A stretch of DNA of 63,944 bases from Rhynchobatus australiae. Lineage: Eukaryota. Both the position numbers and the translations under genes were made by a program. The notes below the pieces were generated by a model. It was not told the origin of the DNA and did no database searches. It saw only the letters and a program-made list of their open reading frames with translations. Position 1 is the stretch's first letter; each line of letters begins with the position of its first letter. Positions 3,925 through 54,447 of the stretch are shown here, piece by piece. The stretch lies in assembly GCA_034780895.1 (NCBI GenBank), contig JAUZTB010000098.1, forward strand, positions 81,293,463-81,357,406, in the 5' to 3' direction.

Positions 3925-5127
3925 CTTCAATGACCTTCTTGAAGAGGTAACTAATATTGATGAGGGCACTGCAGCTAAGGTGGTTTACATCGACTTCAGA
4001 ATGGCCTTTGAAAAGGTTCCACGTGGATGGCCCAAAAGTTAGAGCCCACGGGATCCAAAGAAAGTTGGCAAATTGGATCCAAACTTTGCTTGGTAATAGG
4101 AAAGCGAAGGTGATGGTAAAGGGTTGCTTTTGTGATGGAAACCTGGAATCAGCAGTGTAACCACAGTGATTGGTGCTGGGACCCTTGCTTTTTGTTACAC
4201 ACAAGTTGTTAATATACATAAATGTACAAGGTACAAGGTAGTAGGTTTGCAGAGAAACAAATTGGTGATGTAGTTTATAGCGAGGAGAGTAATCTTAGGC
4301 TACAGAATGATATTGATCAGCTGGTAAGTTGGGTAGAGCAATGACAGATACAACTTAATGGTGATAAGTGGGAGGTGATGCATTTTGGGAGATTTAATAA
4401 GGGTGTGCAATGAATAGTAAGTCACCAAAGAGTATTGAAGAACAAAAGAACCTTGGTATTCAAGTCCAAAGATCCCTGAAGGTGGCACCACAGTAGATAA
4501 GGTGGTCAAGACAACATATGGGATGTTGGCCTTCATTAGTCAGGGCATGAAATACAAGGGCTTGGAGATCTTAGTACAGTTCTATAAAACATTAATTAGG
4601 GAACAGCCAGGATAGTGTGCACAGTTCCAGTAACCCTAATATAGGGAGGATGTGATTATTCAGGAGAGGGTACAGAGAGATTCACTAGGATGCAGCCTGG
4701 GAAGGAACATTTTAGTTCAAAGGAGAGACTATAGGCTGGGTTTGTTTTCCTTGGAGGCTGAGGGTGATACAAAACTAGGGGGGAATGGATAGTGTAGAGA
4801 GTAAGAAACTTTTCTCCATGGCTGAGGTATCCAAGACCAAAGGGTATAGGTTTAAGGTAAGGGGTTATAGGTTTAGAGGGAATCTGAGGAAGGATTTTGT
4901 TTTCCACCCAGAGAATGGTTAAAATCCAGAATGCTCTGCCTGAAAAGGTGGAAGAGGTAGGTATCCTCACAACACCTAAGCAGCATCTGGATGAGAACTT
5001 GAATTGCCAAGGCATAGTAGGCTATGGATTAAAAGCTGGTCAGTAGGATAAGTACAGCCAGGTACTTGATGGCCAGCATGAACAAGATGGGTCAAAAGGA
5101 CTTGTTTGTGTTCTATTGCTCTATGAC
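3925..5127 (+). mobile_element. CR1 LINE, about 1.2 kb 5'-truncated copy (RT domain to 3' UTR), multiple frameshifts
   Basis: Contains FEEVT..IDEG, KVRAHGIQ..LANWIQ and GxVLGPLLF-like segments, then LEYCxQF, FFTQR and WNALPE segments and a typical CR1 3' tail (atgggtcaaaagga..ctctatgac). Confidence 0.85.
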
Positions 5128-5529
5128 AAAATATCAAACTTCTGTCATATTCTGTAATCTGCAGTTCTACATGCAGTGCAGAGTCTAAATATTTACCCTT
5201 TAAACTTTGCTGCATCTGAAAGAATTTCCCTTTTGCAAGTCAGTCTGGACAAGCAAAGCCCCTGGGTCGGTATAAGAATTTCCTGTGTTGTATGCATTTT
5301 TAAATTCACCTTGGCTGTATGGAAGGGAATGTGATTACTATATGCAGTGTATATGCGAGGATTTATTTCTTCTGAGATTTAAAGGAGAGCTGTCATCACA
5401 GAATCCATGATACTTTCATGGCAACAGATTGGAACATCAGAATGTTGATGGTGGTACTGTTGGCACTTCCCAATGTCAAGGCCATATGCAAATCTGCCAT
5501 TTCTAATTCTGCTTTCTTCTTCCAACATT

Positions 5530-5652
5530 AGAAAACATGCAGCTAATGAAATATATCTGTCACTCTTTTAATGCAGGAGGAGTGGCAGCTGACTTGCATG
5601 CAGCAAAGTCCCATAAACAACAATGAGATAATGACCAGTTATCTGTTTTAGT
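5530..5652 (-). mobile_element. Deu-domain SINE fragment
   Basis: gcagcaaagtcccataaacaacaatgagataatgaccagttatctgttttagt, the reverse complement of the Deu-SINE central/3' part. Confidence 0.6.
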
Positions 5653-5677
5653 CTGATGAAACATTTTTGACTTGAAA

Positions 5678-5737
<60 letters not shown>

Positions 5738-5773
5738 CTGTTGCTGCCTGATCAGCTGACTATTTTCCACATT
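5653..5773 (+). mobile_element. Penelope-like terminal repeat fragment with decayed hammerhead core
   Basis: CTGATGA..GAAA followed by tttctctc..ccac..tgctgcctgatcagctga..ttcc, homologous to the repeats at 7310, 30210 and 45470. Confidence 0.55.
5682..5735. repeat. (TC)n microsatellite, about 27 units
   Basis: Perfect dinucleotide run visible directly. Confidence 0.98.
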
Positions 5774-5904
5774 AGAGTGGGTTCATTGATTCAGTTGAGA
5801 ACTTTTCACTGTACAGGTTGCACCCAACTTTGCATTGTACAGAAATCTTCTGACCTACCTGGTATTAACTTTTCCTTTGGGTGTGCCTCCTGTGCAACAA
5901 GATG

Positions 5905-6296
5905 TCAAGCTTGGCTCAGTTAGTGGTCTGTTTACTTCTAAGTCAGAACGTTTGTGGGTTCACATTCCACTTCGAGGATTGAACACATAATCTAGGCTCC
6001 AACCTAATACACTGCCGAGGGAATACTGCCCTGTTGCAGGGACCATTTTGTTTGATGAGATGTTAAATTCATGTCTGATAGGTCCACTTGGTTTATGTAA
6101 AAATCCCATGGCACTACAGGAAGAGCAGAAAGGTTTACGCTATTGTCTTGAGAGTTTATTTCTGGAAGAACATTTACCCTTCAACTAGTATCTCTCTGGT
6201 CATTAGCTCATTGACCTTTGTGGGAATTTGCTATGCCCAAACTGGCAGCCCCATTTCTTACATTATAAATTGACTCACTATGAAAATACTTCATTC
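5905..6296 (+). mobile_element. Deu-domain SINE, near full length
   Basis: tRNA-like head (ttggctcagttagtgg..gtgggttcacattccac with A/B-box remnants) and Deu core (gatgagatgttaaa..aatcccatggcacta..gaagagcag..ctggtcattagctcattg..ttgtgggaatttgct). Confidence 0.75.
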
Positions 6297-6754
6297 CACC
6301 TATTGACAGCAGAAAATGTTGGTATTTAGACATGCAAAGGATACAAGTGCTTCACTTTAAGCAGCAACTGTTGGTCTGATTTATAGTTAAGATTGTCTGG
6401 AAGGCATTTCAGAAACCTGCTTACTCTGGTTTGGAGCCATTCAGCAAGAACAGAATGTATGTTGCTGCATAATAATATTCACTTGGCTGAAATCATATCT
6501 GAAGTCTTGCCATCTGCCTGCGTGTTGTTGAAGTCCCCCAGAAGTAAAATCTCCCAGAGGAGCCTGCTGCTATGTACCATTTGAGCAAGTTGTTGAACTT
6601 ATCATTATTAAAATACTGCAGCACATGCTGCTAAAAAAGAGTTGGCTTCATTTCTTATGTATTGCTTAACTTGAAGGCATGTCAATTGCATTTTATTTAC
6701 AGGACCACCAACACAAGCCAAATCGCAGTCCACTGCAATGTTAAAAAGGACCGA

Positions 6755-6965
6755 TAAATGTTAAAGTGCAGAAGACCATTTGGTCCACTGGTTGTTTCCT
6801 CCGACCTTGTTGGATCCAATACTAATCCCACTTTGCTACCACAGTTTGCCCTAAACCTTCATTCACTTTTCCTTAGATGGATTCACAGGTTCTGCCTCAA
6901 CCATTCCTTCTCACAAAGTATTCCATGCTCCAACAACAGTCTGCATAAGGCAGTTCTCTCCAACT
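6755..6965 (-). mobile_element. CR1 LINE 3' fragment, old
   Basis: gcagaagaccatttggtccac..ctgcctcaacc..tattccatgctccaacaacagtctg, the reverse CR1 tail. Confidence 0.5.
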
Positions 6966-7074
6966 GGCACAATGTTCGGGGCGGCAGGCGGGTAGGTTGA
7001 AAGTAAGTAAGTTCTGGAGCTGGTTCCTAATATCACTGGTAATTATGTGATAGAAATTCTCCAAGACAGATGAC

Positions 7075-7710
7075 GATGGGTTCAGCTCCAGAAATGAGCA
7101 GAAAATCTATGCTGACACATTTGAATGGGATTCTGAGAGAACATTCCACCATCAGCCTAACATGGCCAGAATTTGCTGTTACTCAGATAAGATGCTAAAC
7201 TGACCCCTTATCTTCCCAACCCTAAAGGGATTAAGAGATAACATTTTGAAGGGCAGGGAGTGGTCCCAAATGTTCTGATAAAACTGATCCCTCAATAAAT
7301 ATTACTAAAACACAAAGAGAGACACAAGAAACTGAAAATGCTAGAATCTGGAGCAATAAGCAAACTGCTGGAGGAATTCAGCAGGTCAAGCAGCTTCTGT
7401 GGAGAGTAATGGACAGTCGATGTTTTAGGTCAAGACCATTCACCTCGACTGGAGATGAAGTGTCTAGATCCAAAATGTTGACTGTCCATTTCTCTCCACA
7501 GATGCTGCTTGACCCACTGAGTTCCTCCAGAAGTCTATTACTAAAGGACAAAATGATCTTCATTGGATTGATTATTGTGCCACGTTATTGCTTGTATATT
7601 GGCTGGCACATTGCAATCGTGACTAAACTTTAGCAGTCCATCATTGACTGAAGGTACTTTGACATGTCCAGAAGTCAAAAATTGATGATACATGACCCCA
7701 AGTCTTTCAT
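7075..7710 (+). mobile_element. Deu-domain SINE split by a Penelope-repeat insertion (7310-7535)
   Basis: The 5' part (gggttcagctccaga..gctgacac..cagataagatg..gcagggagt..ccctcaa) resumes after the insert (cattggctg-like, tttgacatgtcc, caagtctttc). Confidence 0.55.
7310..7535. mobile_element. Palindromic insertion of two inverted Penelope terminal-repeat halves, with 10-bp TSD
   Basis: Arms 7368-7445 and 7453-7530 are reverse complements (about 80% by eye). TATTACTAAA occurs at 7300-7309 and 7536-7545. Confidence 0.75.
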
Positions 7711-9704
7711 TCTAATTTCCACAGGTCACTGTTGCACTAAATGAATACATTTGAAACTGGGTCTGAATTATTACTCAAAGCAAAATGGACAAGGTTAAAT
7801 GAAACAGAAGGTGCTAGAAATAGTCTGATAGGGCAGCATCAATGGATAGAGAGAGTTAACATTTCTGGTCTGTTTTATTTCAGATTTCCAACAATATATC
7901 ACTTTTAGACAAGGTTAAATACCATTCCTCCATAATGGGAGAAAAATAATCAAATAACTACAAAATTAGTTGCTGTGTTACCCAACTCTCCAATCTGTAA
8001 ATTTTAGGATCTCCCACACATCCTTTAATATATTAGACTCATTTTCCCATGTCCATATAAAAAATATTTCAATTACAAGGCAATTTTAATTGTGTGGCTG
8101 TTTCATTTATTTGATGGTTTTTTTTCTATGGTGCTGTTTATTCTTGGTTCCCCTCACTCCCCATCCCGTCTCGTTAAACTGAGACTATTCTATTCTCTAT
8201 GGTAAACAGGATGGGAGGATCCATCCAACCAATGTTGTCCAGGAGTATTGTGAATGTGTGACGATCTTGGCACACATCAGCTGGAAGGGACTTTCCCTCC
8301 CTCACTGATTCCCAGCATTTCCAATTCTAATTGAAAACATTCCCAGATATGTCAGGACAACATCTCCTGCCTCCAAATTTCCTGAGCCCACCATTGATTG
8401 CCCAGCATCCTCACTACACAATTTCCAGGCACACAAATTAGAAAGCAAATAAATAAGCACCTTAATACCAAATAAGATAATTTTGGACTTTCAGTAAAAT
8501 AGCATTAATGCATTCTCTACTCTTTTAAGAAACAAACTGAAGTCCTAAATTAAAATGCCCTTGCTGCTCACATCAAGGTACTGGAAATTGATCTTGAGAC
8601 CACAGACCAAGTTTAAAGTGTTTACCACATGACTGATATGTGGTAACATTTCCTGAAGGTTCAAGCATTAAAAGGAGAAATGGAAAAACTAAGAAGAGCT
8701 CTGACAGTCAGAGGACCCTGGCATTCATGGTTAGAGCATCCAAAAGAATATATTAATTATGAACTATAACTCAAACAGTCCCTCTTGATCTTCTACCCTT
8801 TGTCAAAAGAAAGCACTTATTGTAAGGGTAAGTTTTAGACCCCTTGAAAGCTGTAAGAAAAGTGACTGGTTTAAAAATCAAAGGAGGCTATAAAATGGGG
8901 TGAAGGCACCAGCTTCTCTTACCACGTTCTTGCTTGGATTGGCAGTGAACCTACTTTGCCAAGGAACATTTTGACCTTCCAGCAGAACATCCTGGTAGCA
9001 TTACTGAACCTGCAGCAGGTCTAGCAGGACAGTTTCCCTGAATGATTGGTGCTTTGTTACTGTATTCCATGAGAAGTCTGAGAGTAGTCAGAGTAACAGA
9101 GGCAAAAAGATGTTAAGAACTTTGAGATTTATGCGTTTGGGCACACTTGAGCAAGAGTCAAAATACCACCAGTTACACACAGAACTGCCAACATTTCTCA
9201 GCAAAGGCCTAACCAATGATTTTGAAACTATGGATTTTAACAATTGACACATGAGCCTAAAGAAATTGTTTTCCTCAAATTGTTTTATCAATCTTGACTT
9301 TTGAAAACTTTTATTGGGTCACCATTATCTTTTCTTTTCCAAGTAGAAAAGCCCTAATCTTTTTCAACTATTGCTCATAAATAAATCCCTCATACTTAAT
9401 AACTTGGTAGATCTATTCCTTCTTCGATAGTGTTTATATCTTTATTGAGTTGTGATGTCCAGACTGAGGCTTAATCAGTGATTAATAAATTTCTACCAAC
9501 CCTTTTGCTATTATACTTTGCTGCTTTCTTTATAAAATCAAATAACCGAGATGTCTTTATAAACCATCTTTTCTGCTGTGTTGTAACATCTTCAAGATTT
9601 TGTATGTCTGGGCACCAATGTCTTCCAGACTTTTACACTTTCTAAACTTATACATTTATAATATACCACCTTTCTATATTAGGCTTCCTGAAATGCAACC
9701 TTTC

Positions 9705-34411: not shown

Positions 34412-34592
34412 CTCCCCAGCAACAGACATTCTGCTGGAGGAACTCACCGGGTCCAGCAACAGCTGTTGGGGGAGGGGAAGGAATTGTTGGCATTTCAGGT
34501 CAAAACCCTGCATCAGACACTGCTCAACCCACTGAGTTCCTCCAGAAGATGGTTTGTTGCTCCAGATTACACCACCTGCAGTCTCTTGTGCC
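34412..34592. mobile_element. Inverted-pair Penelope terminal-repeat insertion with 9-bp TSD
   Basis: ctgctggaggaactcaccgggtccagca ... tgctcaacccactgagttcctccag are inverted arms. TCCACAAGG occurs at 34403-34411 and 34593-34601. Confidence 0.7.
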
Positions 34593-36350
34593 TCCACAAG
34601 GATCTCCTCTGGTCTGAGTAAAGGCAGAGTCTCAGGACAAATCCAATTAAAATCCAGAAAAGGAACTGGAATTAAAAAAAACATGCAGCATGGGGAGGTG
34701 GTGGGTGGAAGAAGAGAGGATATCTAAAGACTTGTAAAACTAAAGAGAGGTACCAAATCGGGTAGAGATATTTTGAAACAGCAGAGCTGGTCAAGGGGAA
34801 GACTGAAATTGTGTGCAAGGCAAAGGAAAACAATGAGGCTAATGAAAAAAGGGGGAGTGGATGAGAGGAAAGGCAGCTGACTGAAACACTACAGTGGGCC
34901 AAAAAGGATCCAAGGCCTTAGACATGGGAACCTACCACCGAAGGTCACTGAGTGTCATAGAAAAGACCATTGATTCTGCAAATTCTAGAGTGGCCATTAC
35001 TGAAGGGCACTGCTGTCAATTTCATGCTGTTACCCAGCTTTCAGAAAAGAGATGCTTTAAAGAAGTACCTTTGAAGCTGCACAGATTACTAAAGATAACA
35101 GCTTGAAATAAGGCTCATTAAATATTAGCGCATTAATGTATTCTAATGAAATTCTCTAGTTTGCCATCTTAATGAAACTATTTTCAATAAATCACTGTTA
35201 ACTGTTGGACAAAAGAATGTTATATGCTCGACAAACCCAATCTCACCATCAAAAGGTAAGTAATCTTTTTATCTGTTTTTCCTCCTGCACTGCTATCTTG
35301 GGCTTGGAATATAAGAGGTCTTGGAGATGTTATTTCACAATGCAAAAAGCTATGCTTGAGTCACTGATAAACACAACACAGATTTGTTTTCCTTCCACAG
35401 GCTCCTGGCAAGATGGTGCTGGCCCTATTGAATAGGATTATATACAAAAGTAGTCATAACAGGTCAACATGATGCGTATCTAACTATTGGCCCATATGTT
35501 TCAGAGTTAAGTGTTTAGTTCCTCACTAATCCACTATGTCAGCATAGTCTTAAGTGCACATATTCGGGTATGTGTACATATTTTCAGACAGGCTTAATCC
35601 CCTAAAATACTTAATGTATCTGTACTGAATACTTCAAAATGTTTCTGTTAATTGCAAGCTTATTAATGCCGGTGTTAAATGAGTGCAAAAGAATTTATTG
35701 AGAGTACATTATGTGTATATCATATCCAATCATTCACATTTACAGCACGTTGTTGATTGCATCTTCATCCTAGGCCAAAAATCCAGTCAGACCCCAGATG
35801 GGCATCAAAAGCAAACCTCTTAACCAATTAGTGATCTGCTCTGACAGGCAATGAAAGTTGAGAGACTTTCAGAGATGAAGTACAAAAATACTCCATTAAA
35901 CAGAATGAAAAGCAGAACAATCTGCAAGGTAACTCCAATTACATCCAAGTCTGTTTCTGGAGAGTGTAACCAAGTCAACACTCACCCACATTCCTGTAAC
36001 TTGCACCATTTCCCCTACAACTTAAATTAAGCTGCACCTTCCATTTTAAAGCACAAGGGAAGAAAATTTATGAGCTGATTGTGGCCATTTTCTGTGATTT
36101 CAGTTTACTTTTAACTGTCCTCTGAAGTAGCCACCCTGAATTATCACAAAAGCTAATCACAGCCTGCCCAAGGGACCTCAGGAGACTACCTGAATGATGG
36201 TTTTGCCAATAACACCCTGCACATAGCAAATGAATGCAAGGAGATTTGAGCACATTTAGCTGAAACTTCATTTGATCACTTCATCTTACTTCAGAAAAAG
36301 ATGCAATTGTGTTGGAAGCTGAACCTTTTTCAATTAATTTTTTTCCTCAG

Positions 36351-36666
36351 GGTTCTTCCTCAACACTTTGTCGCACATTTCAAGGGGCAGAACTTTCACT
36401 TGCTTTCCTCCACCCTGCTTTCTGCCCACCAGCATCTTCACACCGGGGAGAGGCCGTTCACCTGCTCGGATTGCGGGAAGGGCTTCGTTCGATCATTCGA
36501 TCTGGTGATGCATCAGCAGATCCACACCAGGGAGAGGCTGTTCACCTGCCCCGTGTACAGGAACGAGTTCACTCAGTCCTCTGACCTGTGGAGACACCAG
36601 CGGGTTCACACCAGGGAGCAGCTGTACACCTGCCCCGAGTGCGGGGAGGGATTTATTTATCCGTCC
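36351..36666 (+). pseudogene. C2H2 zinc-finger fragment (one intact finger, one degenerate, two partial) behind a splice acceptor
   Basis: HQHLHTGERPFTCSDCGKGFVRSFDLVMHQQIHTRERLFTCPVYRNEFTQSSDLWRHQRVHTREQLYTCPECGEGF. The second finger has lost a Cys and later linkers are decayed. Acceptor ttttttcctcag ends at 36350. Confidence 0.8.
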
Positions 36667-39600
36667 ATAACCCCCGCCCCCCCCGCCAAACTGTACCGAA
36701 CCTATCTTATGTATTTGCTGGCATCAGAGCGAAGCTACTGAAAAAATGGCTTCTGTTTCTTTCTACAATTAGAAATGGTCTTGGTCAACCAGCTTCAGAC
36801 TCTTTAGCCACTAAGGACAGTGCAGATGTGAAGGAAATTTACAACCCACTGATCTACTAGTACACAAAAAGATGACAGAAAATTGTACTTTTAAGCTATG
36901 CAACTTGTTTGTTATTTTCTGACAGTTAATTGAGCTCGTGATCACCTATGTGCAGAATAACCCAAGGCTTTCCAGTGTTGGATTCAACTGTTTTAATTAG
37001 TTTTTTAACATGTATAGTGTTTAATACACCTCCAGNNNNNNNNNNNNNNNNNNNNNNNNNNNNNNNNNNNNNNNNNNNNNNNNNNNNNNNNNNNNNNNNN
37101 NNNNNNNNNNNNNNNNNNNNNNNNNNNNNNNNNNNATAAAACTTTGTGAAGCACCAAGTTGTTTTCAACTCATTCCTGGACTCCTGAAAGAACCTGTGGA
37201 TTCAAAAATAACCGGTTCCGACATTAGCCACAGTCCACTGGAGTTTAATGCATGCAGATTTGAGTTTTAATTATTAGATGAGAAATTAGAGTTGCTGAGC
37301 TGAATGCAAGAGCATTGCTGGAACAGTCTTTCCCATTCTGGATCCTTCAGACTTTTCACTTCCAGCAAATACTAACTTGAGACCATGTGACTATTTATTA
37401 TTGGAAATCTCATGTTTCATATAGCAATTTGTTGAGTCTTGTGTGAAATCTTGGTTGAAGTCTGATAATGTGGTCATTTTTCATTAATTTCTTGAGGATT
37501 TGATAGGTGTAATGCAGGCACAAACCTCTTCTAGCTGATGATCAAAAGATAGCAGTGTTAGATGAAACACAATGATAATATTCTAAAAAAAAATTACCCT
37601 CATTTTCAACAGTTGATAATTATTGACTCATTTTAGATACCTTGACAAACATGTTAATACCAGGAGACTTGAAGAGTTGTTTTATTAAAAAAAACTTGTC
37701 ATTTTGCAAATTGGATGAAGTTGTGACAAAGGTGTAATATATCACTTAATATTTGCATTGATAAAGTACATGCAAAACATGTCATAGTGTTTCAGTTAAT
37801 AAAAATGTGACAATTTAAATGCATAAATATGGTTTCCATCAAACTTGTGGAGCAGGAACAAATCTGAGAATTTTGTATTTGTTGACAAAGATAAAGTCAA
37901 AAGAATTATGGAATTGCAATAAATACTTAATGCATGACTCAATGCAAGAAAACAATACCTAACAAAGTGATGTTCTGGATGGGATAAGCATTCTTATCAC
38001 GCTTTTACACGAATAATCTTTACACAAATAAAACCTGTTCAGTTCACATGTTCCAGAGCTGAAACATGATTTATAATTTAAGAAAACACACTCTTAATGA
38101 GGTTCAAAACCTTCTCCTGTTAATATTTAATAAAATCTTTCACATTCTGAGTCAGATTACCTTGTTATCATAATTACTCATTGCACTTGCTGAAAGTAAA
38201 CTCATTATCTTTCTGAGTACTAAAAGCTGTGGAAGATCATTTGTGCTCCTGCAAATAATTCCTCCTTTTCCATGCCTTGGGAATTCCTTGATGAAAGGAG
38301 ACAGAAAGGATCCCAGATTTGCTGAGATCATCTTGCTGCCCACACTTGTAACCGAGGTACAATTTAGGTGTGCATTCATTTGAAGACGAAATTTACCGAA
38401 TGGCATGTCTGGGTCCCAACTACAGCGCAGCTGCTGGTCCTTGCTTCCATCATTGGGTGAGCTGGGACAAATCCCACTTATGAAACTGCTGTGAAAATCT
38501 TTGACTAAAGCCCTTTTCCCCAACTTTGCCATCTATCAAAGCTGTCATTATTTCTCTTCCCTGCCCCCCACCATACTTCTAAATATCATTAATGTTTTGA
38601 AGCATTCAAAGACTTTGGAGCCAAAACAATTTTTAAAAATTGCTAAAAATAAATCATTTCTAAACTTCAAGTAAACAAACAACTGAAATGTTTTAAAATT
38701 CTTTTCCTAAATCCCCTCTCAGATGAATGGGCTTCATTGGGTCTAACCCAGTGCAGGATCCATGATCCATTCTGCAGCACAAGTTCTGGGGAATCTCAGT
38801 CAGCTCCTGCTCCATCACTGGATTTCAGCACAAACACCAATGATTTCTCTGCAGGGCAGGAATCCATCATCAAATTCAGGATCTCTGTGTATGGATGTAC
38901 ATGTGCCGAGTACTGAACCTGCAGGCATTTGTGGGTACAAGGATGTTCCAGGACAATGACTTATATAACAAAAGCATGGCTCAGACTGAGAACGTACCAA
39001 GTGGCTCCTCAGTGGTTAAGTACAATATCGGACATGATGCTGACTAATAGTATAAAGGCCCCACCCTNNNNNNNNNNNNNNNNNNGTACACAGAGTTAGG
39101 AATAGTAATGGCCAAGACTGGGGAAAACTCTGCAGGGCTTAGATTCCCCAGTGACCACTGATTTAAGCACCAAATACAACAGGCCACAATGGGCAGTTCA
39201 GTTCCACCTCATCCAACTAAACAATGAGGACTGGCAGATAAAAACCAGTCTATTCAGCTTCTCCCACACAACGGTCATAATACCCATCTCCAAGTCCATC
39301 CCCTTTCCATCCATTGGAAGCAGAGTGGCCTCCAGAAGAGACACACAACAGATTAAATATAAGCCAATTTGGAGATGAACATCTGGGAAACTTCTCGAAC
39401 ATCTGTGCAAACAGTCTAGACTCATGGTCACTTGACTGGGCTTCTTTGTAGGGAAGTACCTGTACCACTTCAGGAGTCAACATCTGCAGGAGGAGAAAGA
39501 AAAAAATAGAATCATTTAACAAACTCCTTAAAAGGAATTCCATTCCCCACATCCACCCGCCCCACCCTCACCTTAACTTGGGTGAACTTGTATAGAGTAA

Positions 39601-42909: not shown

Positions 42910-43672
42910 CATTGAACCACAGAACCATAGAACAATGCAGCATAATACAGGCCCTTCGGCCCACCATATTGTGCTGCCCATCAAATCACACCTCACACTA
43001 TCTAACCCTTTCCTCCCACGTATCCCTCTATCCCACATTCCTCCATATGCCTATCCAACAATCTCTTGAACCTGTCCAACATATCTGCCTCCACCACNNN
43101 NNNNNNNNNNNNNNNNNNNNNNNNNNNNNNNNNNNNNNNNNNNNNNNNNNNNNNNNNNNNNNNNNNNNNNNNNNNNNNNNNNNNNNNNNNNNNNNNNGAT
43201 TTATCTGTCTTGATATTATTTAACAACTTCAACACATCCTCTCTCTTGATATCTACAACCTCGAGAACATTACCTTTACCAGCACTCCCTTCCACGTCAT
43301 CAAGACCCCTCTCCTTGGTGAGTACCGAAGAGAAGTATTCATTGAGAACTTCTCCCACTTCTGCTGCCTCCAGGCACATCCTTCCACCTTTGTCTTTAAT
43401 CAGACCTACCTTTACCCTAGCCATCCTTCTACTCTTCATGTATGTGAAAAATGCCTTGGGATTTTCCTTAACCCTACTAGACAACACCTTTTCATGTCCC
43501 CTTCTAGCTCTCCTCAGCCGTCTCTTAAGTTCCTTCCTCACCACTCTATATTCCTCATGGGCCCTGTCTGAGCCTTGCTGCTTACACCTTATGTATGCTG
43601 CCTTCTTCTTCTTAACCAGTCATTCCACCCCTCTCATCACCCACGGTTCCTTCACCCTGCCAGTCCTTCTCT
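42910..43672 (-). mobile_element. Young CR1 LINE spanning an assembly gap
   Basis: ORF 43002-43544 reads RKELKRRLRRARRGHEKVL..KENPKAFF.Y..LNEYFSSV..LLNNIKTDK [gap] FKRLLDRHM. The 3' tail with (GGTTC)-type repeats lies at about 42910-42930. Confidence 0.92.
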
Positions 43673-45469
43673 GACAATTGATACATCACCACAATCATGT
43701 ATCAATAATAGCTCTCAAAATTTTTCTCCCCACAGGTATGAACATTTACACTCCCTCAGCAAATAATTTGCTATTGATCACATTTGATTCATTCATTTTT
43801 AAGTCTTGAATTCAGATTGAAATCACTTTCAATTGCTGTATAAAATTCAACCATATTATGTTCACTCTTCCTGAAAGATCCCCAAGTTATCAGATCAACA
43901 AATAGCCCTCTCTCATTGCATAGCACTAGCTCAAAAATAACCTATTGCCTTGTTGATTCTTCAACATATTGATCTAGAAACCCAGCTCTTATACAGTCTA
44001 TGAATTTGTCCTCCTTACTATTACTAATCATTCAGCACAGAGAGAGGCCATTCACCCCATTACAAATAGACCAGCTCTTTGAAAAAGGTATCCAATTAGT
44101 CCCACTCACTGGTTCTTTCCCCTCAGGCCCACAAACACTGACGTACCTTCTAAGTTAGTGCTTGGAATAAAAAGCACAAAATAATAAATATATTAAACTT
44201 GCCTACCCTGTAGTAGATATCCTTGAAAGCTAACAGATTGGAGATCTGTGACTTGCTTAGGATTCATATTCACAGAGCTCCCTAGAGCTGCTACAGTCAA
44301 CTGAAAACACTCAATAAGATATCCAGTTACAAATCCTAGGTTTATGAAAGGACCTACAATCCTCTTTTTTGCAAGGGTGGCTGTTTGCAGGTCATGACTA
44401 CTGAATACCTATTTAACTGACTCAGGTGATCTGAAGAGCACTGAAGGAAAGGACACTGCACTAATTAGATCTTTTGTTCTTAAAAGATCAGACTAGATTG
44501 AACAGTACTGGTTGTAATCAAGGATAATATTCTTTTCATTGTAATTAGTAATGTTCCTGCAATGATCTTCTGCCTTAAATTTTAACAATACTTTTAAAAT
44601 TTTCCCCTAATCTTAACAGATTTTTAAAATTAGTGTTACTCCCCATGTTTACTCTTTGGGGAATCCAAAACTAAGGTCCATAAATTAAAGGGGCTGAGTG
44701 TCTGTGTTGGGCACCAATAGGAAATTGCACACCGAATAGTTTTCATGAGTACAGTGAAAGTGTTGGCAGGTGAGACAAATTGGCTAGTTCTACCAGAGTC
44801 AGCGGAGGCATGATGGGCTGTTTACCTTTGTGGTGCATCATTCTTCAATTCCATGAGGTCTTCTGTTCAAGTTCACAACTCAAGGAATTTGCATTATCAC
44901 AAACCAAAATCTACATTAACCTATGTAAATACACTAGGTAATAGAACAGTTTTTCTGTATTTGTCTATTCATTTAAAAGGGTTCCTTAATGGACTTATGA
45001 GTGCAATTTTAGTAGTATTGCTGAAAATGAGTTTATTGCCAAAAAATAAGCCCTTTTGATAAAACATTTGATTCTTCTCCTGAGTAACCTAACATAAAAT
45101 TACTTTAAAGTTGTGTCAGAAACCTAATAGTTTCTGAATAAATTAAATCTTTTTGATATAAAAATCCTTTACAGCATGCTGCTTATGTCCTTAAGATAAT
45201 GAACAAAATTTGAAGTACTTTCCTACAGCAACAAGTAGGCAGAATCTTTCAGTTACAAATTGGGGTGTGGTCAGTGTGATGTTGGGCCTCATGCGGGCAA
45301 ACTGAATCTTAAACTACTGCAAGGTTTCAGAAAACACAAATGTGTGGTTTTGGGCGTAACATGTTTTATCATCTTGGATCTTTTGCACTGGTTTATTTCA
45401 CACCCTTTTGCTGATGTTACTGCTGGAAACTCAACCTAGTGTAAGTTCCTAATCAATCCTGTAAAGAAT

Positions 45470-45616
45470 TATGAAAAGCACGATGATGCTGGAGGAACTC
45501 AGCAGGCCAGGCAGCATCCGTGGAGAAAAGCAGGCGGTCAACGTTTCGGGTCAGGACCCTTCTTCAGGACTGAAGATAGGAAAAAGGGAAACCCAATATA
45601 TAGGAGGGAAAAGCAG
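45470..45616 (-). mobile_element. Young Penelope-like terminal repeat (pseudo-LTR)
   Basis: gatgctggaggaactcagcaggccaggcagcatccgtggag.. with intact CpGs; homologous to the decayed copies at 7310, 34412, 54228 and 60062. Confidence 0.8.
45535..45572 (-). ncRNA. Minimal type I hammerhead ribozyme motif
   Basis: Reverse strand: CAGTC CTGAAGA A GGGT-CCTG-ACCC GAA ACGT T GACCG. Stem I 4/5 bp, CUGANGA core, stem II, GAAA, palindromic ACGU stem III, GUU cleavage triplet. Confidence 0.75.
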
Positions 45617-46269
45617 TCCGAGCAAGCTTACAGAGAGAAAGGCACCGAAAACTCGTGGGCATGCGGCCTACTGAAGACCTTGAAGCTGCAACCACAGAGT
45701 TGCAAGACTTTTGGGTCAAAAATTCACTGCACTCTCAGGCGCCTGTCACCACTTTGCTGAGGAAGTAGGGGGAGAGATGAGAGTGCATTGTTCCGTGCAA
45801 GTTTATTTTGTTCCCTCTCCCCAAAACACTTGGTAGACAAGAAGAGGGCAGCAGAGCTGATCCTGTCGGGTGTCACAAAATCCTGGTGGAGAAAGTGAGC
45901 CAACGTCAGGCACCAGCCAGATTCTCTCCACTGATCCCCACTCAATTTAAGCAGCTCCACACACATCCCACTGTCTGTCTATTTTAATTTATTTATGATG
46001 ATCAGCTTAACTATGAGAAAGGACACACTGGGATCAGGAGTAAAAGTACTCACTCTAGGAAAGGGAAAGGTTGCAAGGCTGAGATGTGGTCTGGTAAAAC
46101 TGGGACTGCACATGTCTGCTTTTATCATCAGACGAATAGGCTACATGAGAAAAGAAGAATATGATGGGTGGGAGCAGATATGAACCCACAAGGGAAAACT
46201 GTAGGAATACCATGGAGCACACAGAGATGGAGAAGGCAAAAGAAAGAAAACTTTTGACAGCCCAGTGAT

Positions 46270-46990
46270 GCAGAAAGTTGAGACAACTATAGAAAGAACA
46301 AGGAGGAAAATGAAAAGGCAAATTAAGAAGCCAAAGCAGGAAATACATTTGCAAGGGATATGCATAAGTGGCAAGAAGAAAACTAAGGGAAGAGTAGGGT
46401 CTTCAGAGACAAGATGATAAGTCACGTCAAGAGACAGGCAACATACGTTTTAATAAATACTCTGTATCTGTCTTCACAAAGGTCCTAGATGATGCAGTTA
46501 TTGTTCAAGAGGAAGGAGTGTGAAATATTGGGTAGGATTAACAAGGAGAAAGGGAATACTAAAGGCTTTAGCACCATTGAAAGTTGAAAACCCTCCAGGT
46601 CTGGATAAAATGTATCTCAGGATTTTAAAAGAAGAGGAAGTAGTGGAAGTTCTGAGCATCATTTTTCCAGCCTTCTCTGGTGATGGGTGTGGAAGTGGGG
46701 GTCGTGTGATGGTGCCATCGTTTAAGAAGAGAGAAGAATTGAAAACATTTCTGGGTGGGAAATGGTGTCTCACAAATTTGATTAAGGTTTTGATCAAGAG
46801 GATCAAGAGGATTGATGAGGGTAGTGCAGTAGATGTTGTCCACATGGACTTTATCAAGGTCTTTGACAAGATCCCGCAAGGTAGGCTGGCTCAGCAGGAT
46901 AGATCACAGAGGGTCTAGGATGAGGTGGCTAATTGGATGGAAAATTTGCATGGTGGCAGGAGTCAGAGGGTTGTGAAGGATTGTTTTAAG
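46270..46990 (+). mobile_element. CR1 LINE internal fragment (pre-RT and RT start), decayed
   Basis: PGLDKMYLRILKE..LSIIF..CLTNLI..IDEGSAVDVVHMDFIKVFDKIPQGRL. Confidence 0.85.
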
Positions 46991-47132: not shown

Positions 47133-47670
47133 GTTTGTAGAAGATGTTGTCGGATAAGGAATCTCCAGAGATGGAGATGGAAAGATCGAGGAAGGAGAGA
47201 GAGGTGTCAGAGATGGTCCAAGTGAACTGGAGAGCAGGGTGAAAATTAGTGGTGAAATTTATGAGACTGTCAAGTTCCGCACAGGTACAAGAGGTGGCAC
47301 TAATGGAGTTGTTGATGTGGTGGAGAAAGATTTGAGGAATGGGGCCAGACCAGGCTTGGAACAAAGACTGTTTAACATAGGCAGTGAAGAGGCAGGGATA
47401 GCTGTCGCCCATGCAGGTGTCCATAGCTACACCCTTGGTCCATAGAAAGTGAGAGAACTTGAGAGTGAAGTTGTTTAGGGTGAAGACAAGTTCAGCCAGG
47501 TGGAGGAGAGTTTTAGTGAAGGGGACTGGTTCTGTCTCTAGTCAAGAAAAAAGCAGAGGGTAGTGAGGCCTCTATGGCCTCATGGGGAATGGAGGTACAT
47601 AGGGACTGGACGTCCATGGTAAAAATGAGGTTGTGCGTGCCGGAGAACTTAAAGCTATGGAAGAGTTGGA
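47133..47670 (-). mobile_element. Penelope-like element reverse transcriptase relic
   Basis: LIFTMDVQSLY(fs)...MDTCMGDSYPCLFTAYVKQSLF..IFLHHINN (decayed RYIDD)..NFHPALQFTW..SLSFLDLSI..IFYK is a typical PLE RT. Confidence 0.88.
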
Positions 47671-47850
47671 GACTGTGTGATGTGTCCTGGGTATATACCT
47701 ATAAAGAATGATTTGGTTTATTAGGAACTGCAATGTGATAAAAGACCAAGTTCCATTGCTTACTTTTCTAGTACCCTGTACAACTGTGTAATACAGCAAT
47801 AGGGCCTTTGATTAATTACGGCAATTAGTCTCTTACTGGTACTAAGAATT

Positions 47851-52464: not shown

Positions 52465-53993
52465 GTCAAGTTCGAGTTACTTTATTGTCATTCATTCATG
52501 CTATAAAAACACACGGCGGAACGAAATGTCGTTTCCCCCAGACTCACACAACAGAGGACGTACAATAAACACTAAAAAACCAAAATAAAATTGTGCAAGT
52601 ACAAATAGTGCAAAAAAAAGCGGTATATACAGAATACAAATTTAGTGCAGAGTTAGTGCAAAACCGAGTTGGACGAAGAAAAATACAAAGCTCGGTGTGT
52701 TGTACTCATTGTATAAACATGTTCAGCTGCAGCCAAACTTCTTGTACGCCGTTGTGCAAACCAGGGCTTTTGATGTGGCATTTGTCTACCAGGGTGTTCA
52801 GGAGCCTGACAGCCTGGGGGAATAAACTGTTGTGCAATCTGGTAGTTCCGGCCCGGATGCTCCGGTACCACTTGCCAGGCGGTAGTGGGGCAAATAGGTC
52901 GTGGGAGGGATGAGAAGGGTCCTCTATGATTCTGAAAACTTTACATGCACATCGTGTACTGTAAATATGCGAGATAGAGGGGAGAGGTACTCCAATGATC
53001 TTTCTTGCTGAACTCGCAATTCTCTGCAAAGTCTTACGGTCAGAGATATTACTGTTGCCGTACCAGGCAGAGATGCAGCTGGTCAGGACACTCTCAATGG
53101 TACCCCTGTAGAATGTGGTGAGGCTGGGGGAGGGCAGTTTTGCTCTTTCCAGCCGCTGTAAAACGTGGAGACGCTGCTGTGCCTTCTTGGCGAGGGAGGA
53201 GATGTTGGTTGACCAGGACAGGTCGTCTGCTATATGTATTCCCAAGAACTTATAACAGCTGACTCTCTGTACAATGATGCCTTTGATGCACAGAGGTAAG
53301 TGGTCAGACTGAGCCTTTCTAAAATCCACAATCACCTCTCTTGTCCATGTTCAAGGAGAGATTGTTGACTGAGCACCAGTCCACCAGCCTCGTCACCTCC
53401 TCTCTGTAAGCTGTTTCATCATTCCTGCTGATGAGGCCCATCACTGTTGTATCATCAGCAAACTTGATGATACGGTTGGAGCTTGAGTCGGCAGAACAGT
53501 CATGGGTCAGCAGCGTGAACAGCAGTGGACTGAGCACGCAGCCCTGGGGGGGTTCCAGTGCTCAGCCTGGTGATGATTGAGATGGTATTTCCAATATGAA
53601 CTGACTGTGGCCTTTCAGATTGGAAGTCCAAAATCCAATTGCAGGTGGAGGTGCTGAGGCCCAGTAGGTGTAGCTTTCTTATGAGGTTCTGTGGGATGAG
53701 AGTGTTAAAGGCAGAGCTGAAGTCTATGAAGAGCATCCTAACATAAGTGTCCTTTTGATCTAGGTGAGACAAAGCCAGGTGGAGGGCAAAGGACACTGCG
53801 TCTTCAGTTGACCAATTGGGGCGGTATGCAGGCTGAAAGGCTTCCAGTGATGGAAGGAGAATGGATTTGATGTGTTGCAAGACTAACCTCTCGAAGCAGT
53901 TTATGATGACTGAAGTCAGTGCCATGGGGTGGTAGTCATTTAAATAGGTTACAGGCGTCTTTTTAGGCACTAGTATAATGGTGGTAGATTTAA
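52465..53993 (-). mobile_element. Rex1/Babar LINE, about 1.5 kb 5'-truncated copy with full RT domain (frameshifted)
   Basis: [86 protein letters not shown]. Confidence 0.95.
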
Positions 53994-54227
53994 ATTCTCC
54001 AGATTGGTTTAGAAGATTCTAGGTACCGTGAGATCCACAGCTGGTTGTAGCAGAACATCAATAGTTACCGGCCCTGACAGAATTTATCTAATTTATTACT
54101 GTGTTCTCCCTTCTGTTGCCAAGCCTATTTTCTTTCCAGTTGGCTAACTTACCATTAAAAAGTAAAGCCATGCACAAAAATTAAAAGTGTCATAACTTTA
54201 CTATTGATTATTTGGGTCTGAGTTACA

Positions 54228-54447
54228 GTGAATAATGGAAATACCCAGCAGATCAGCTAGTGTCTGTGAAGAGAGCAACACAATTAATGTTTCAGGTTGG
54301 TGACCTTACGTTTGAACATGAAAAATCATCAACATGAAATGGTCCCTTTTATTTCTCTGTCCACAGACCTGCCTGACATGCTGAGTATTTTCAACATTTT
54401 CTGTTCATTATTTCAGATTTCTAGCATTGGCAGTATTCTGCTTTTAT
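54228..54447. mobile_element. Inverted-pair Penelope terminal repeat, old
   Basis: ggaaatacccagcagatcag..tctgtgaagagag versus ctctgtccacagacctgcctgacatgctgagtattttc (inverted arms). Confidence 0.6.

What the first reader, a model, noticed from the sequence alone, without database searches (positions are those of the whole stretch)
45535..45572. Near-intact minimal hammerhead ribozyme in a young Penelope terminal repeat
Seen: the minus strand reads CAGUC-CUGAAGA-A-GGGU(CCUG)ACCC-GAA-ACGU-U-GACCG. All catalytic-core nucleotides are present, stem II is perfect, and stem I has one mismatch. There is one extra A between A9 and G10.1. Stem III is only the self-complementary ACGU with no loop. Established: Penelope-like retroelements carry minimal type I hammerheads in their terminal repeats, palindromic stem III forms are thought to cleave as dimers, and an extra residue after A9 is tolerated in some natural hammerheads. 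Inference: this CpG-intact copy could still self-cleave after GUU, most likely as a dimer. It is the only copy in the window with an intact core.
Basis: partly seen in the sequence, partly recalled or inferred. Interest (0 to 1): 0.7.

Follow-up and report, generated by a model that had tools for sequence, protein, structure and literature searches.

The report
Leftover Penelope ribozyme, shark-like genome
This is an undamaged copy of the tiny self-cutting RNA motif that Penelope-type jumping genes are already known to carry, left on a 146-base stump among thousands of similar stumps in what is likely a shark or ray genome, where it is likely silent.

Summary
The motif is real and sits where described: one descriptor hit in the window, none in 200 shuffles. 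It lies on a 146-nt, 5'-truncated end (45471-45616, minus strand) of a Penelope-like element (PLE), likely Neptune clade. Long copies carry RT, a Cys-rich linker and GIY-YIG, and show the same repeat before and after the ORF. The 38-mer equals its subfamily majority at 38 of 38 positions and has 284 exact genome matches. So the stem I mismatch, extra A and U17 are inherited, not decay. Copies decay about neutrally (non-CpG loss: core 3.8%, non-core 5.4%, P=0.07). 'Young' is not supported: the insertion is shared with another organism whose flanks differ by 5-8%. Cleavage at this locus is unlikely. No same-strand partner with intact core and palindrome lies in 264 kb, an upstream helix is predicted to outcompete the fold, and published metazoan minimal hammerheads did not cut as monomers. 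This is the class Cervera and De la Pena described in 2014. This scan noted it before (29 findings, at least 16 genomes). One extra: sister subfamilies spread with non-canonical cores.

The parts
45471..45616 (-). 146-nt 5'-truncated 3' end (pLTR fragment, no 30-40-nt tail) of a Neptune-type Penelope-like element
   Evidence: All 29 other top copies align within 45465-45617, most ending at 45471-45474 on the element's 3' side, and many run on 5' of 45616. The same sequence follows the ORF stop in L031 and L033 and precedes the 5' body in L283, L292, L294, L295. No target-site duplication found.
45535..45572 (-). Minimal type I hammerhead motif, identical to the subfamily majority
   Evidence: 284 exact genome matches, reversed control 0
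45561..45567 (-). Core C3-A9 (N7 = A, a subfamily marker)
   Evidence: Sequence; A7 in 80 of 91 copies
45560..45560 (-). Second A, next to G10.1 (the 'extra' residue; across subfamilies this A is the less variable of the two)
   Evidence: A in 88 of 91 subfamily copies; 94% A against 71% for the preceding position in the 154-hit alignment
45548..45559 (-). Stem II (4 bp) and tetraloop
   Evidence: Pair probability 0.77-0.90 in the isolated 38-mer, about 0.01 in the 146-nt context
45540..45547 (-). G12-A14, palindromic ACGU (15.1-16.1) and U17; predicted cut between 45540 and 45539
   Evidence: Sequence; U17 in 86 of 91 copies; cut site inferred from hammerhead numbering, untested
45580..45596 (-). 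Upstream pyrimidine-rich stretch predicted to pair with 45565-45546 and sequester core and stem II
   Evidence: MFE fold; hammerhead fold costs 7.9 kcal/mol; 32 of 300 shuffled upstreams cost as much, so not shown to be designed
45471..45534 (-). Conserved segment 3' of the cut site, up to the common 3' end (likely RT recognition/initiation region)
   Evidence: Most columns 0.8-0.95 conserved across subfamilies; 3' ends 65-76 nt (12 of 30) or 100-108 nt (12 of 30) past the cut
47133..47686 (-). Separate RT fragment of the same PLE family, 1.5 kb upstream; no PLE sequence found between it and the hammerhead (a 100-N gap lies between)
   Evidence: 80-84% identity to long copies

Best explanation
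The motif is an undecayed copy of the minimal hammerhead in the terminal repeat of a Penelope-like retrotransposon (likely Neptune clade), carried on a 146-nt stump that is likely a silent, neutrally ageing insertion. Shown: motif, terminal-repeat status, linkage to an RT-linker-GIY-YIG ORF, identity to the subfamily majority. Inferred: reverse transcription started 69 nt downstream of the cut site on an RNA that was uncut (or re-ligated) there, and stopped after 146 nt. In the parent element the ribozyme would act only in tandem precursor RNA, where two motifs pair through ACGU, probably helped by the element's protein, and would cut weakly after GUU. At this locus it would not cut (chance of meaningful cleavage in vivo about 0.05-0.1).
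For: Sequence and chance test. Long copies: ORF with DKG, YIDD, CX2-5CxxC linker and a GIY-YIG-like IY..YIG motif, read by eye. Protein relatives at 58-60% from whale shark and a devil ray; RVT_1 E=7e-4, below cut-off, in 1 of 7 frames. Repeat found 3' of the stop and 5' of the body in 4 of 25 loci. Two 3' end classes about 35 nt apart match the PLE tail and two RT starts in PMC11167929. Abundance: 284 exact, 1705 anchored, 4966 core-pattern matches (controls 0, 0, 11); 154 hits in 0.73 Mb, control 0. Decay in 91 copies: non-CpG core 35/910, non-core 109/2002, P=0.066; CpG sites 179/546; G12 lost in 27 of 91. None of 52 other hits in 264 kb keeps all core letters plus ACGU. Stem I probability about 0 in all five wider contexts. 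Active dimer -12.3 against two monomers -14.0 and an inactive cofold -24.1 kcal/mol. Literature: monomer inactive, dimers low (PMC4209133); Anolis HHR cuts only with protein, mutants still insert, no RNA-seq ends at the site (PMC11167929).
Against: The copy is unusually well kept: 3 differences in 146 nt, tied for lowest against a median of 7.5%, only 1 of 91 anchored copies shares the exact 38-mer, and 5 CpGs survive, although the insertion predates a 5-8% flank divergence. The core trends towards better conservation than non-core (3.8% vs 5.4%, P=0.066). Nearest-neighbour energies ignore core tertiary contacts. No cleavage assay or raw RNA reads were available. Clade assignment rests on motifs, not a tree; 6 of 7 frames and all four retroelement frames had no informative Pfam hit.
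Confidence: 0.85

Rival explanations
1. This copy still cleaves when transcribed, pairing in trans with transcripts of the many sister copies or helped by PLE protein.
For: It is identical to the form carried by the source element. About 8 of 91 sister copies keep core, stems and palindrome, out of roughly 10^4 to 5x10^4 copies (8 in 0.67 Mb). Family sequence appears in contigs of runs guessed to be RNA. GUU is listed as a cleavable NUH site (PMC3138052, passages); an extra A only moderately slows the CChMVd hammerhead (PMC3705267, PMC1636495, passages).
Against: A trans dimer rests on a 4-bp duplex of -1.7 kcal/mol; the active dimer is less stable than monomers or an inactive cofold. Rival folds dominate in context. 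Even cis dimers were weak in PMC4209133.
Confidence: 0.1
2. The copy has been kept by selection as a host element.
For: Shared with organisms D (left junction) and E (both junctions); lowest divergence class; 5 CpGs intact.
Against: It was picked as the best-looking of 11 window hits. At one search's rates my rough Poisson tail for 3 or fewer changes is about 0.01-0.09. The orthologs' letters at the motif could not be read. No host exon was recognised among 150 of 153 candidate frames in 264 kb, apart from one ribosomal L32p-like frame about 85 kb away.
Confidence: 0.03
3. The source element's hammerhead was already non-functional, a vestige of the terminal repeat.
For: This lineage fixed U17, a 3-bp effective stem I and A7, which completes a hairpin with the 5' flank. 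Sister lineages fixed C after G8 (clusters 2 and 3, 23 of 96 copies) or U4A (12 of 29 scored in cluster 1) and still spread. No clear two-sided stem II covariation (1 cell in 20 hand-picked copies). This concerns the parent and is compatible with the best explanation for this copy.
Against: Core, stem II and the ACGU (or its CpG-decay forms) are recognisable in all six clusters while the linker 3' of stem I differs. N7, loop II and N17, the free positions, are what differ between subfamilies (whose pattern fixed the core).
Confidence: 0.25

Closest known systems
Minimal hammerheads (min-HHR) of metazoan PLE pLTRs, including fish Xena, Poseidon and Neptune (Cervera and De la Pena 2014, PMC4209133)
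   Same: Type I, no helix III, residue between 9 and 10.1, G10.1-C11.1, palindromic 15.2-16.2, short stem I, in the pLTR, mostly on solitary truncated copies, thousands per genome.
   Different: Cartilaginous-fish-like host (not named in the two of four text parts read or in supplement file 2; file 1 not searchable). Stem II 4 bp against 7-8 bp in Schistosoma. U17. Copy number far above the 4,000-9,000 reported for coelacanth and Xenopus if decayed copies are counted.
Poseidon PAc hammerhead of Anolis carolinensis (Frangieh et al. 2024, PMC11167929)
   Same: Hammerhead upstream of two genomic 3' ends separated by a 30-40-nt tail; insertions span the cut site.
   Different: PAc's ORF starts inside the hammerhead and Poseidon lacks the Cys linker. 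Here the ORF start was not mapped and the linker is present.
Non-LTR retrozymes (bioRxiv 10.64898/2026.07.22.740005)
   Same: Type I hammerhead of pLTR origin; reported in one chondrichthyan genome.
   Different: Retrozymes are tandem arrays with a hammerhead in each unit; this copy is solitary. A sister locus (L063) does form a short 76-nt tandem.
CChMVd (+) hammerhead with extra A10 (PMC3705267, PMC1636495)
   Same: Extra A between A9 and G10.1.
   Different: A viroid hammerhead whose loop-loop contacts were studied (PMC2632901, search listing only); active without a partner (recalled).

Membership tests
PLE min-HHR | Core CUGANGA ... GAAA ... UH | tested here: met
PLE min-HHR | One residue between positions 9 and 10.1; G10.1-C11.1 pair | tested here: met
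PLE min-HHR | No helix III; palindromic 15.2-16.2 | tested here: met
   ACGU at 45544-45541
PLE min-HHR | Located in the pLTR of a PLE | tested here: met
PLE min-HHR | Compensatory covariation in stems across families | tested here: inconclusive
   20 hand-picked copies: stem II 93.8% paired, 1 two-sided cell; covariation score 7/500 shuffles, pairs with two-sided change 57/500; the C-G to U-A change at the base of stem I may partly be CpG decay
PLE min-HHR | Self-cleavage as dimer or with protein | not testable with these tools
   No assay; only contigs, no raw RNA reads
EN+ Penelope-like element | Single ORF with RT then C-terminal GIY-YIG and CCHH | tested here: met
   Broken frames of long copies read by eye, relatives P0001/P0002; Pfam support weak
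EN+ Penelope-like element | Direct pLTR, inverted 5'-truncated arms, optional 30-40-nt tail | tested here: met
   tail in 37 of 91 copies
Neptune clade | CX2-5CxxC linker between RT and EN (shared with Nematis, absent in Poseidon; PMC8557442) | tested here: met
   L030 frame, P0001/P0002
Neptune clade | RT phylogeny with Neptune references | not tested
   No named reference sequences were at hand
Rfam hammerhead families | Covariance model match | tested here: not met
   No hammerhead hit at E<=10
Non-LTR retrozyme | Tandem units, each with a hammerhead | tested here: not met
   Solitary copy

The most novel reading that the evidence does not exclude
The subfamilies of this element form a natural mutational scan of the PLE hammerhead. 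Lineages that fixed C right after G8, or U4A, or (this one) U17 with a 3-bp stem I, each spread to many thousands of copies, while the A next to G10.1 stayed nearly fixed. Either the real A9 is that second A and the insertion lies between G8 and A9, a core geometry I did not find in the papers read, or cleavage is dispensable for spread in vivo.
Probability: 0.25. Interest if true: 0.45.

Novelty: new member of a known kind. Interest (0 to 1): 0.2.

Why it matters
As a single copy it matters little: it is one stump among hundreds with the same motif. The family is more useful. What PLE hammerheads do is still open (PMC8557442 raises that they may parasitize PLEs; PMC11167929 finds cleavage unnecessary for insertion in vitro). 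A genome with several successful lineages differing at core positions gives ready-made natural variants to assay side by side.

Tried and rejected
Rfam: no hammerhead hit. Folding z-scores: -0.02, 0.19, -0.25, uninformative. Expression: no RNA holder listed. Runs guessed to be RNA covered only repeats and no unique flank, and contigs cannot show ends; no conclusion drawn. Host gene: 150 of 153 non-repeat frames of 85 aa or more in 264 kb gave 1 Pfam hit; short exons would be missed, so intron versus intergenic is open. Target-site duplication: only an internal 8-mer. Upstream helix as a designed lock: 32 of 300 shuffles as costly, not supported. 5' ends at the cut site: of 50 tail-anchored copies 23 were dropped for N gaps; of 27, 1 starts within 4 nt of the cut, 6 at the motif's front edge (3 of them fold-back junctions by eye), 6 inside it, 13 further upstream, 1 downstream; too few to conclude. 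The idea that the RT fragment at 47133-47686 and the hammerhead are one insertion: no PLE sequence found between. Lunse et al. 2017 (RNA Biol 14:1499) was not held; I saw only its title and a review's summary, and it may already describe such core variants. A search for Penelope + hammerhead + shark found no paper on this; one search likewise. Rates for GUU against GUC were not found; that GUU is slower is recalled.

Full report
Observation. A minimal-hammerhead descriptor finds this one site in the window, none in 200 of 200 shuffles, and 2 sites in a 0.73-Mb sample that includes the window. Rfam returns no hammerhead at E<=10 and the 38-mer's folding z-score is -0.02. The window holds 11 family hits; one other, 5652-5781(+), keeps the core letters but not stem II or the palindrome.

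The carrier. The 30 best genome matches share homology with the window only over about 45471-45616; many extend further 5'. Long copies run from an ORF with RT motifs, a CX2-5CxxC linker and a GIY-YIG-like domain through a stop to the hammerhead about 250 nt later. The endonuclease frame's two database relatives, at 58% and 60% identity, are labelled whale shark and Mobula, so the host is likely a cartilaginous fish. Pfam support is weak: RVT_1 at E=7e-4 in 1 of 7 frames. The same terminal sequence plus tail runs into the element's 5' body in 4 of 25 loci, so it is a true direct pLTR. 3' ends fall 65-76 nt (12 of 30) or 100-108 nt (12 of 30) past the cut; 37 of 91 copies carry the tail. This matches the PLE tail and twin RT starts in PMC11167929 (passages and section 3 part 2 read). 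The linker points to Neptune or Nematis (PMC8557442, passages); only Neptune and Poseidon were found in vertebrates (bioRxiv 10.64898/2026.07.22.740005, part 1 of 5 and passages). No tree was built.

Abundance. The exact 38-mer occurs 284 times, control 0. Anchors outside the motif give 1705 matches; a core pattern gives 4966, control 11. In 0.73 Mb of unselected sequence a profile finds 154 hits, reversed control 0, 20 with an intact core, 3 of those with C after G8. Eight subfamily copies in the 0.67 Mb outside the window scale to roughly 10^4 to 5x10^4; all subfamilies to several 10^5. Both are extrapolations.

Decay or design. I fetched 91 anchored copies: the first 90 listed matches of 1705, all on one contig, plus one further match inside a fetched locus. 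The window motif equals the majority at 38 of 38 positions; U17 is in 86 of 91 and the mismatch-forming C in 65 of 91, the rest mostly CpG decay. Non-CpG loss is 35/910 in the core and 109/2002 outside (P=0.066); CpG sites lose 179/546; 44 of 91 keep the core, 8 keep core, stems and palindrome, 1 is identical. Copies therefore age about neutrally. Across six clusters built on non-hammerhead columns (96 of 154 hits with enough cover), the core, stem II and ACGU stay recognisable while the linker differs, but the 3' segment is as conserved as the core. Clusters 2 and 3 (23 of 96) read C after G8 in 18 of 22 scored copies; 95 exact CpG-intact matches show that this is ancestral. Twelve of 29 scored copies in cluster 1 read A at U4. 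The A next to G10.1 is 94% conserved against 71% for the A before it. Covariation on 20 hand-picked copies is inconclusive.

Age. The copy differs from the majority at 3 of 146 positions (2.1%, median 7.5%) and keeps 5 CpGs. But a contig of organism E joins 72 nt of the element to the unique right flank (45545-46318, 55 differences). Another joins the left flank to 53 nt of it (35 differences in 424), and organism D holds the left junction. Half of that 5-8% divergence fits the subfamily's 4.9% non-CpG age. The copy is best read as a lucky survivor of an old burst; the orthologs' letters at the motif could not be read.

Could it cut? Isolated, stems I and II form (0.77-0.90, outer stem I pair 0.07). 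With only 10 nt of flank a hairpin captures the core, and in the 146-nt context an upstream helix takes core and stem II; stem I falls to about 0 in all five wider contexts. The hammerhead fold costs 7.9 kcal/mol, though 32 of 300 shuffled upstreams cost as much. An active dimer scores -12.3 against -14.0 for two monomers and -24.1 for an inactive cofold; these energies omit tertiary contacts. None of 52 other hits in 264 kb keeps all core letters and the palindrome. Cervera and De la Pena (PMC4209133, parts 1-2 of 4 read, supplement file 2 searched, file 1 unavailable) found no cleavage by a single Schistosoma min-HHR and low cleavage by dimers. The Anolis motif needed protein, its mutants still inserted, and no RNA-seq ends mapped to the site (PMC11167929). 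An extra A moderately slows the CChMVd hammerhead (PMC3705267, PMC1636495, passages). Every copy that spans the cut site must come from uncut or re-ligated RNA (inference).

Context. No host gene was recognised and RNA data were uninformative. The RT fragment at 47133-47686 belongs to the same family but appears to be a separate insertion.

Verdict. A real, already described class of motif on a dead PLE stump. Earlier notes of this scan reached the same view on other DNA (8 of 29 shown); I tested neutral decay and ends myself. Interest 0.2. The core-variant sister lineages are the part worth an experiment, subject to Lunse et al. 2017, which I could not read.

Noticed in passing
L063 around 4660-4840 (G000:C1:2828233 and 2828309): Natural head-to-tail 76-nt repeat with two whole hammerheads of this subfamily and part of a third; units begin at the front of stem I. 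A dimer-competent, retrozyme-like arrangement, though the active fold is 17.7 kcal/mol above the MFE.
   Followed up: partly
Genome-wide; window 34427-34517(-); L049, L078, L119: Subfamilies with C directly after G8 and A next to G10.1; 95 exact CpG-intact matches. Others read A at U4.
   Followed up: partly
window 7361-7536, 34427-34553, 54236-54401: Fold-back (head-to-head) pairs of decayed pLTR fragments of older subfamilies.
   Followed up: partly
window 47133-47686 (-): PLE RT fragment of the same family, ending at a 100-N gap.
   Followed up: yes
window 36250-36741 (+): C2H2 zinc-finger frame (Pfam zf-H2C2_2, E 7.6e-17); possibly a fragment or pseudogene of a zinc-finger gene.
   Followed up: partly
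L059:6709-6978 (-): Frame with a ribosomal L32p match (E 5.6e-6), about 85 kb from the finding; possibly an exon or pseudogene.
   Followed up: no
window 43002-43619, 46493-46918, 52706-54018: Frames that look like LINE reverse transcriptase fragments by eye; the one scanned had no Pfam hit.
   Followed up: no
L298-L347: 23 of 50 tail-anchored copies run into assembly gaps at their 5' side, so this assembly under-reports complex or fold-back insertions.
   Followed up: partly
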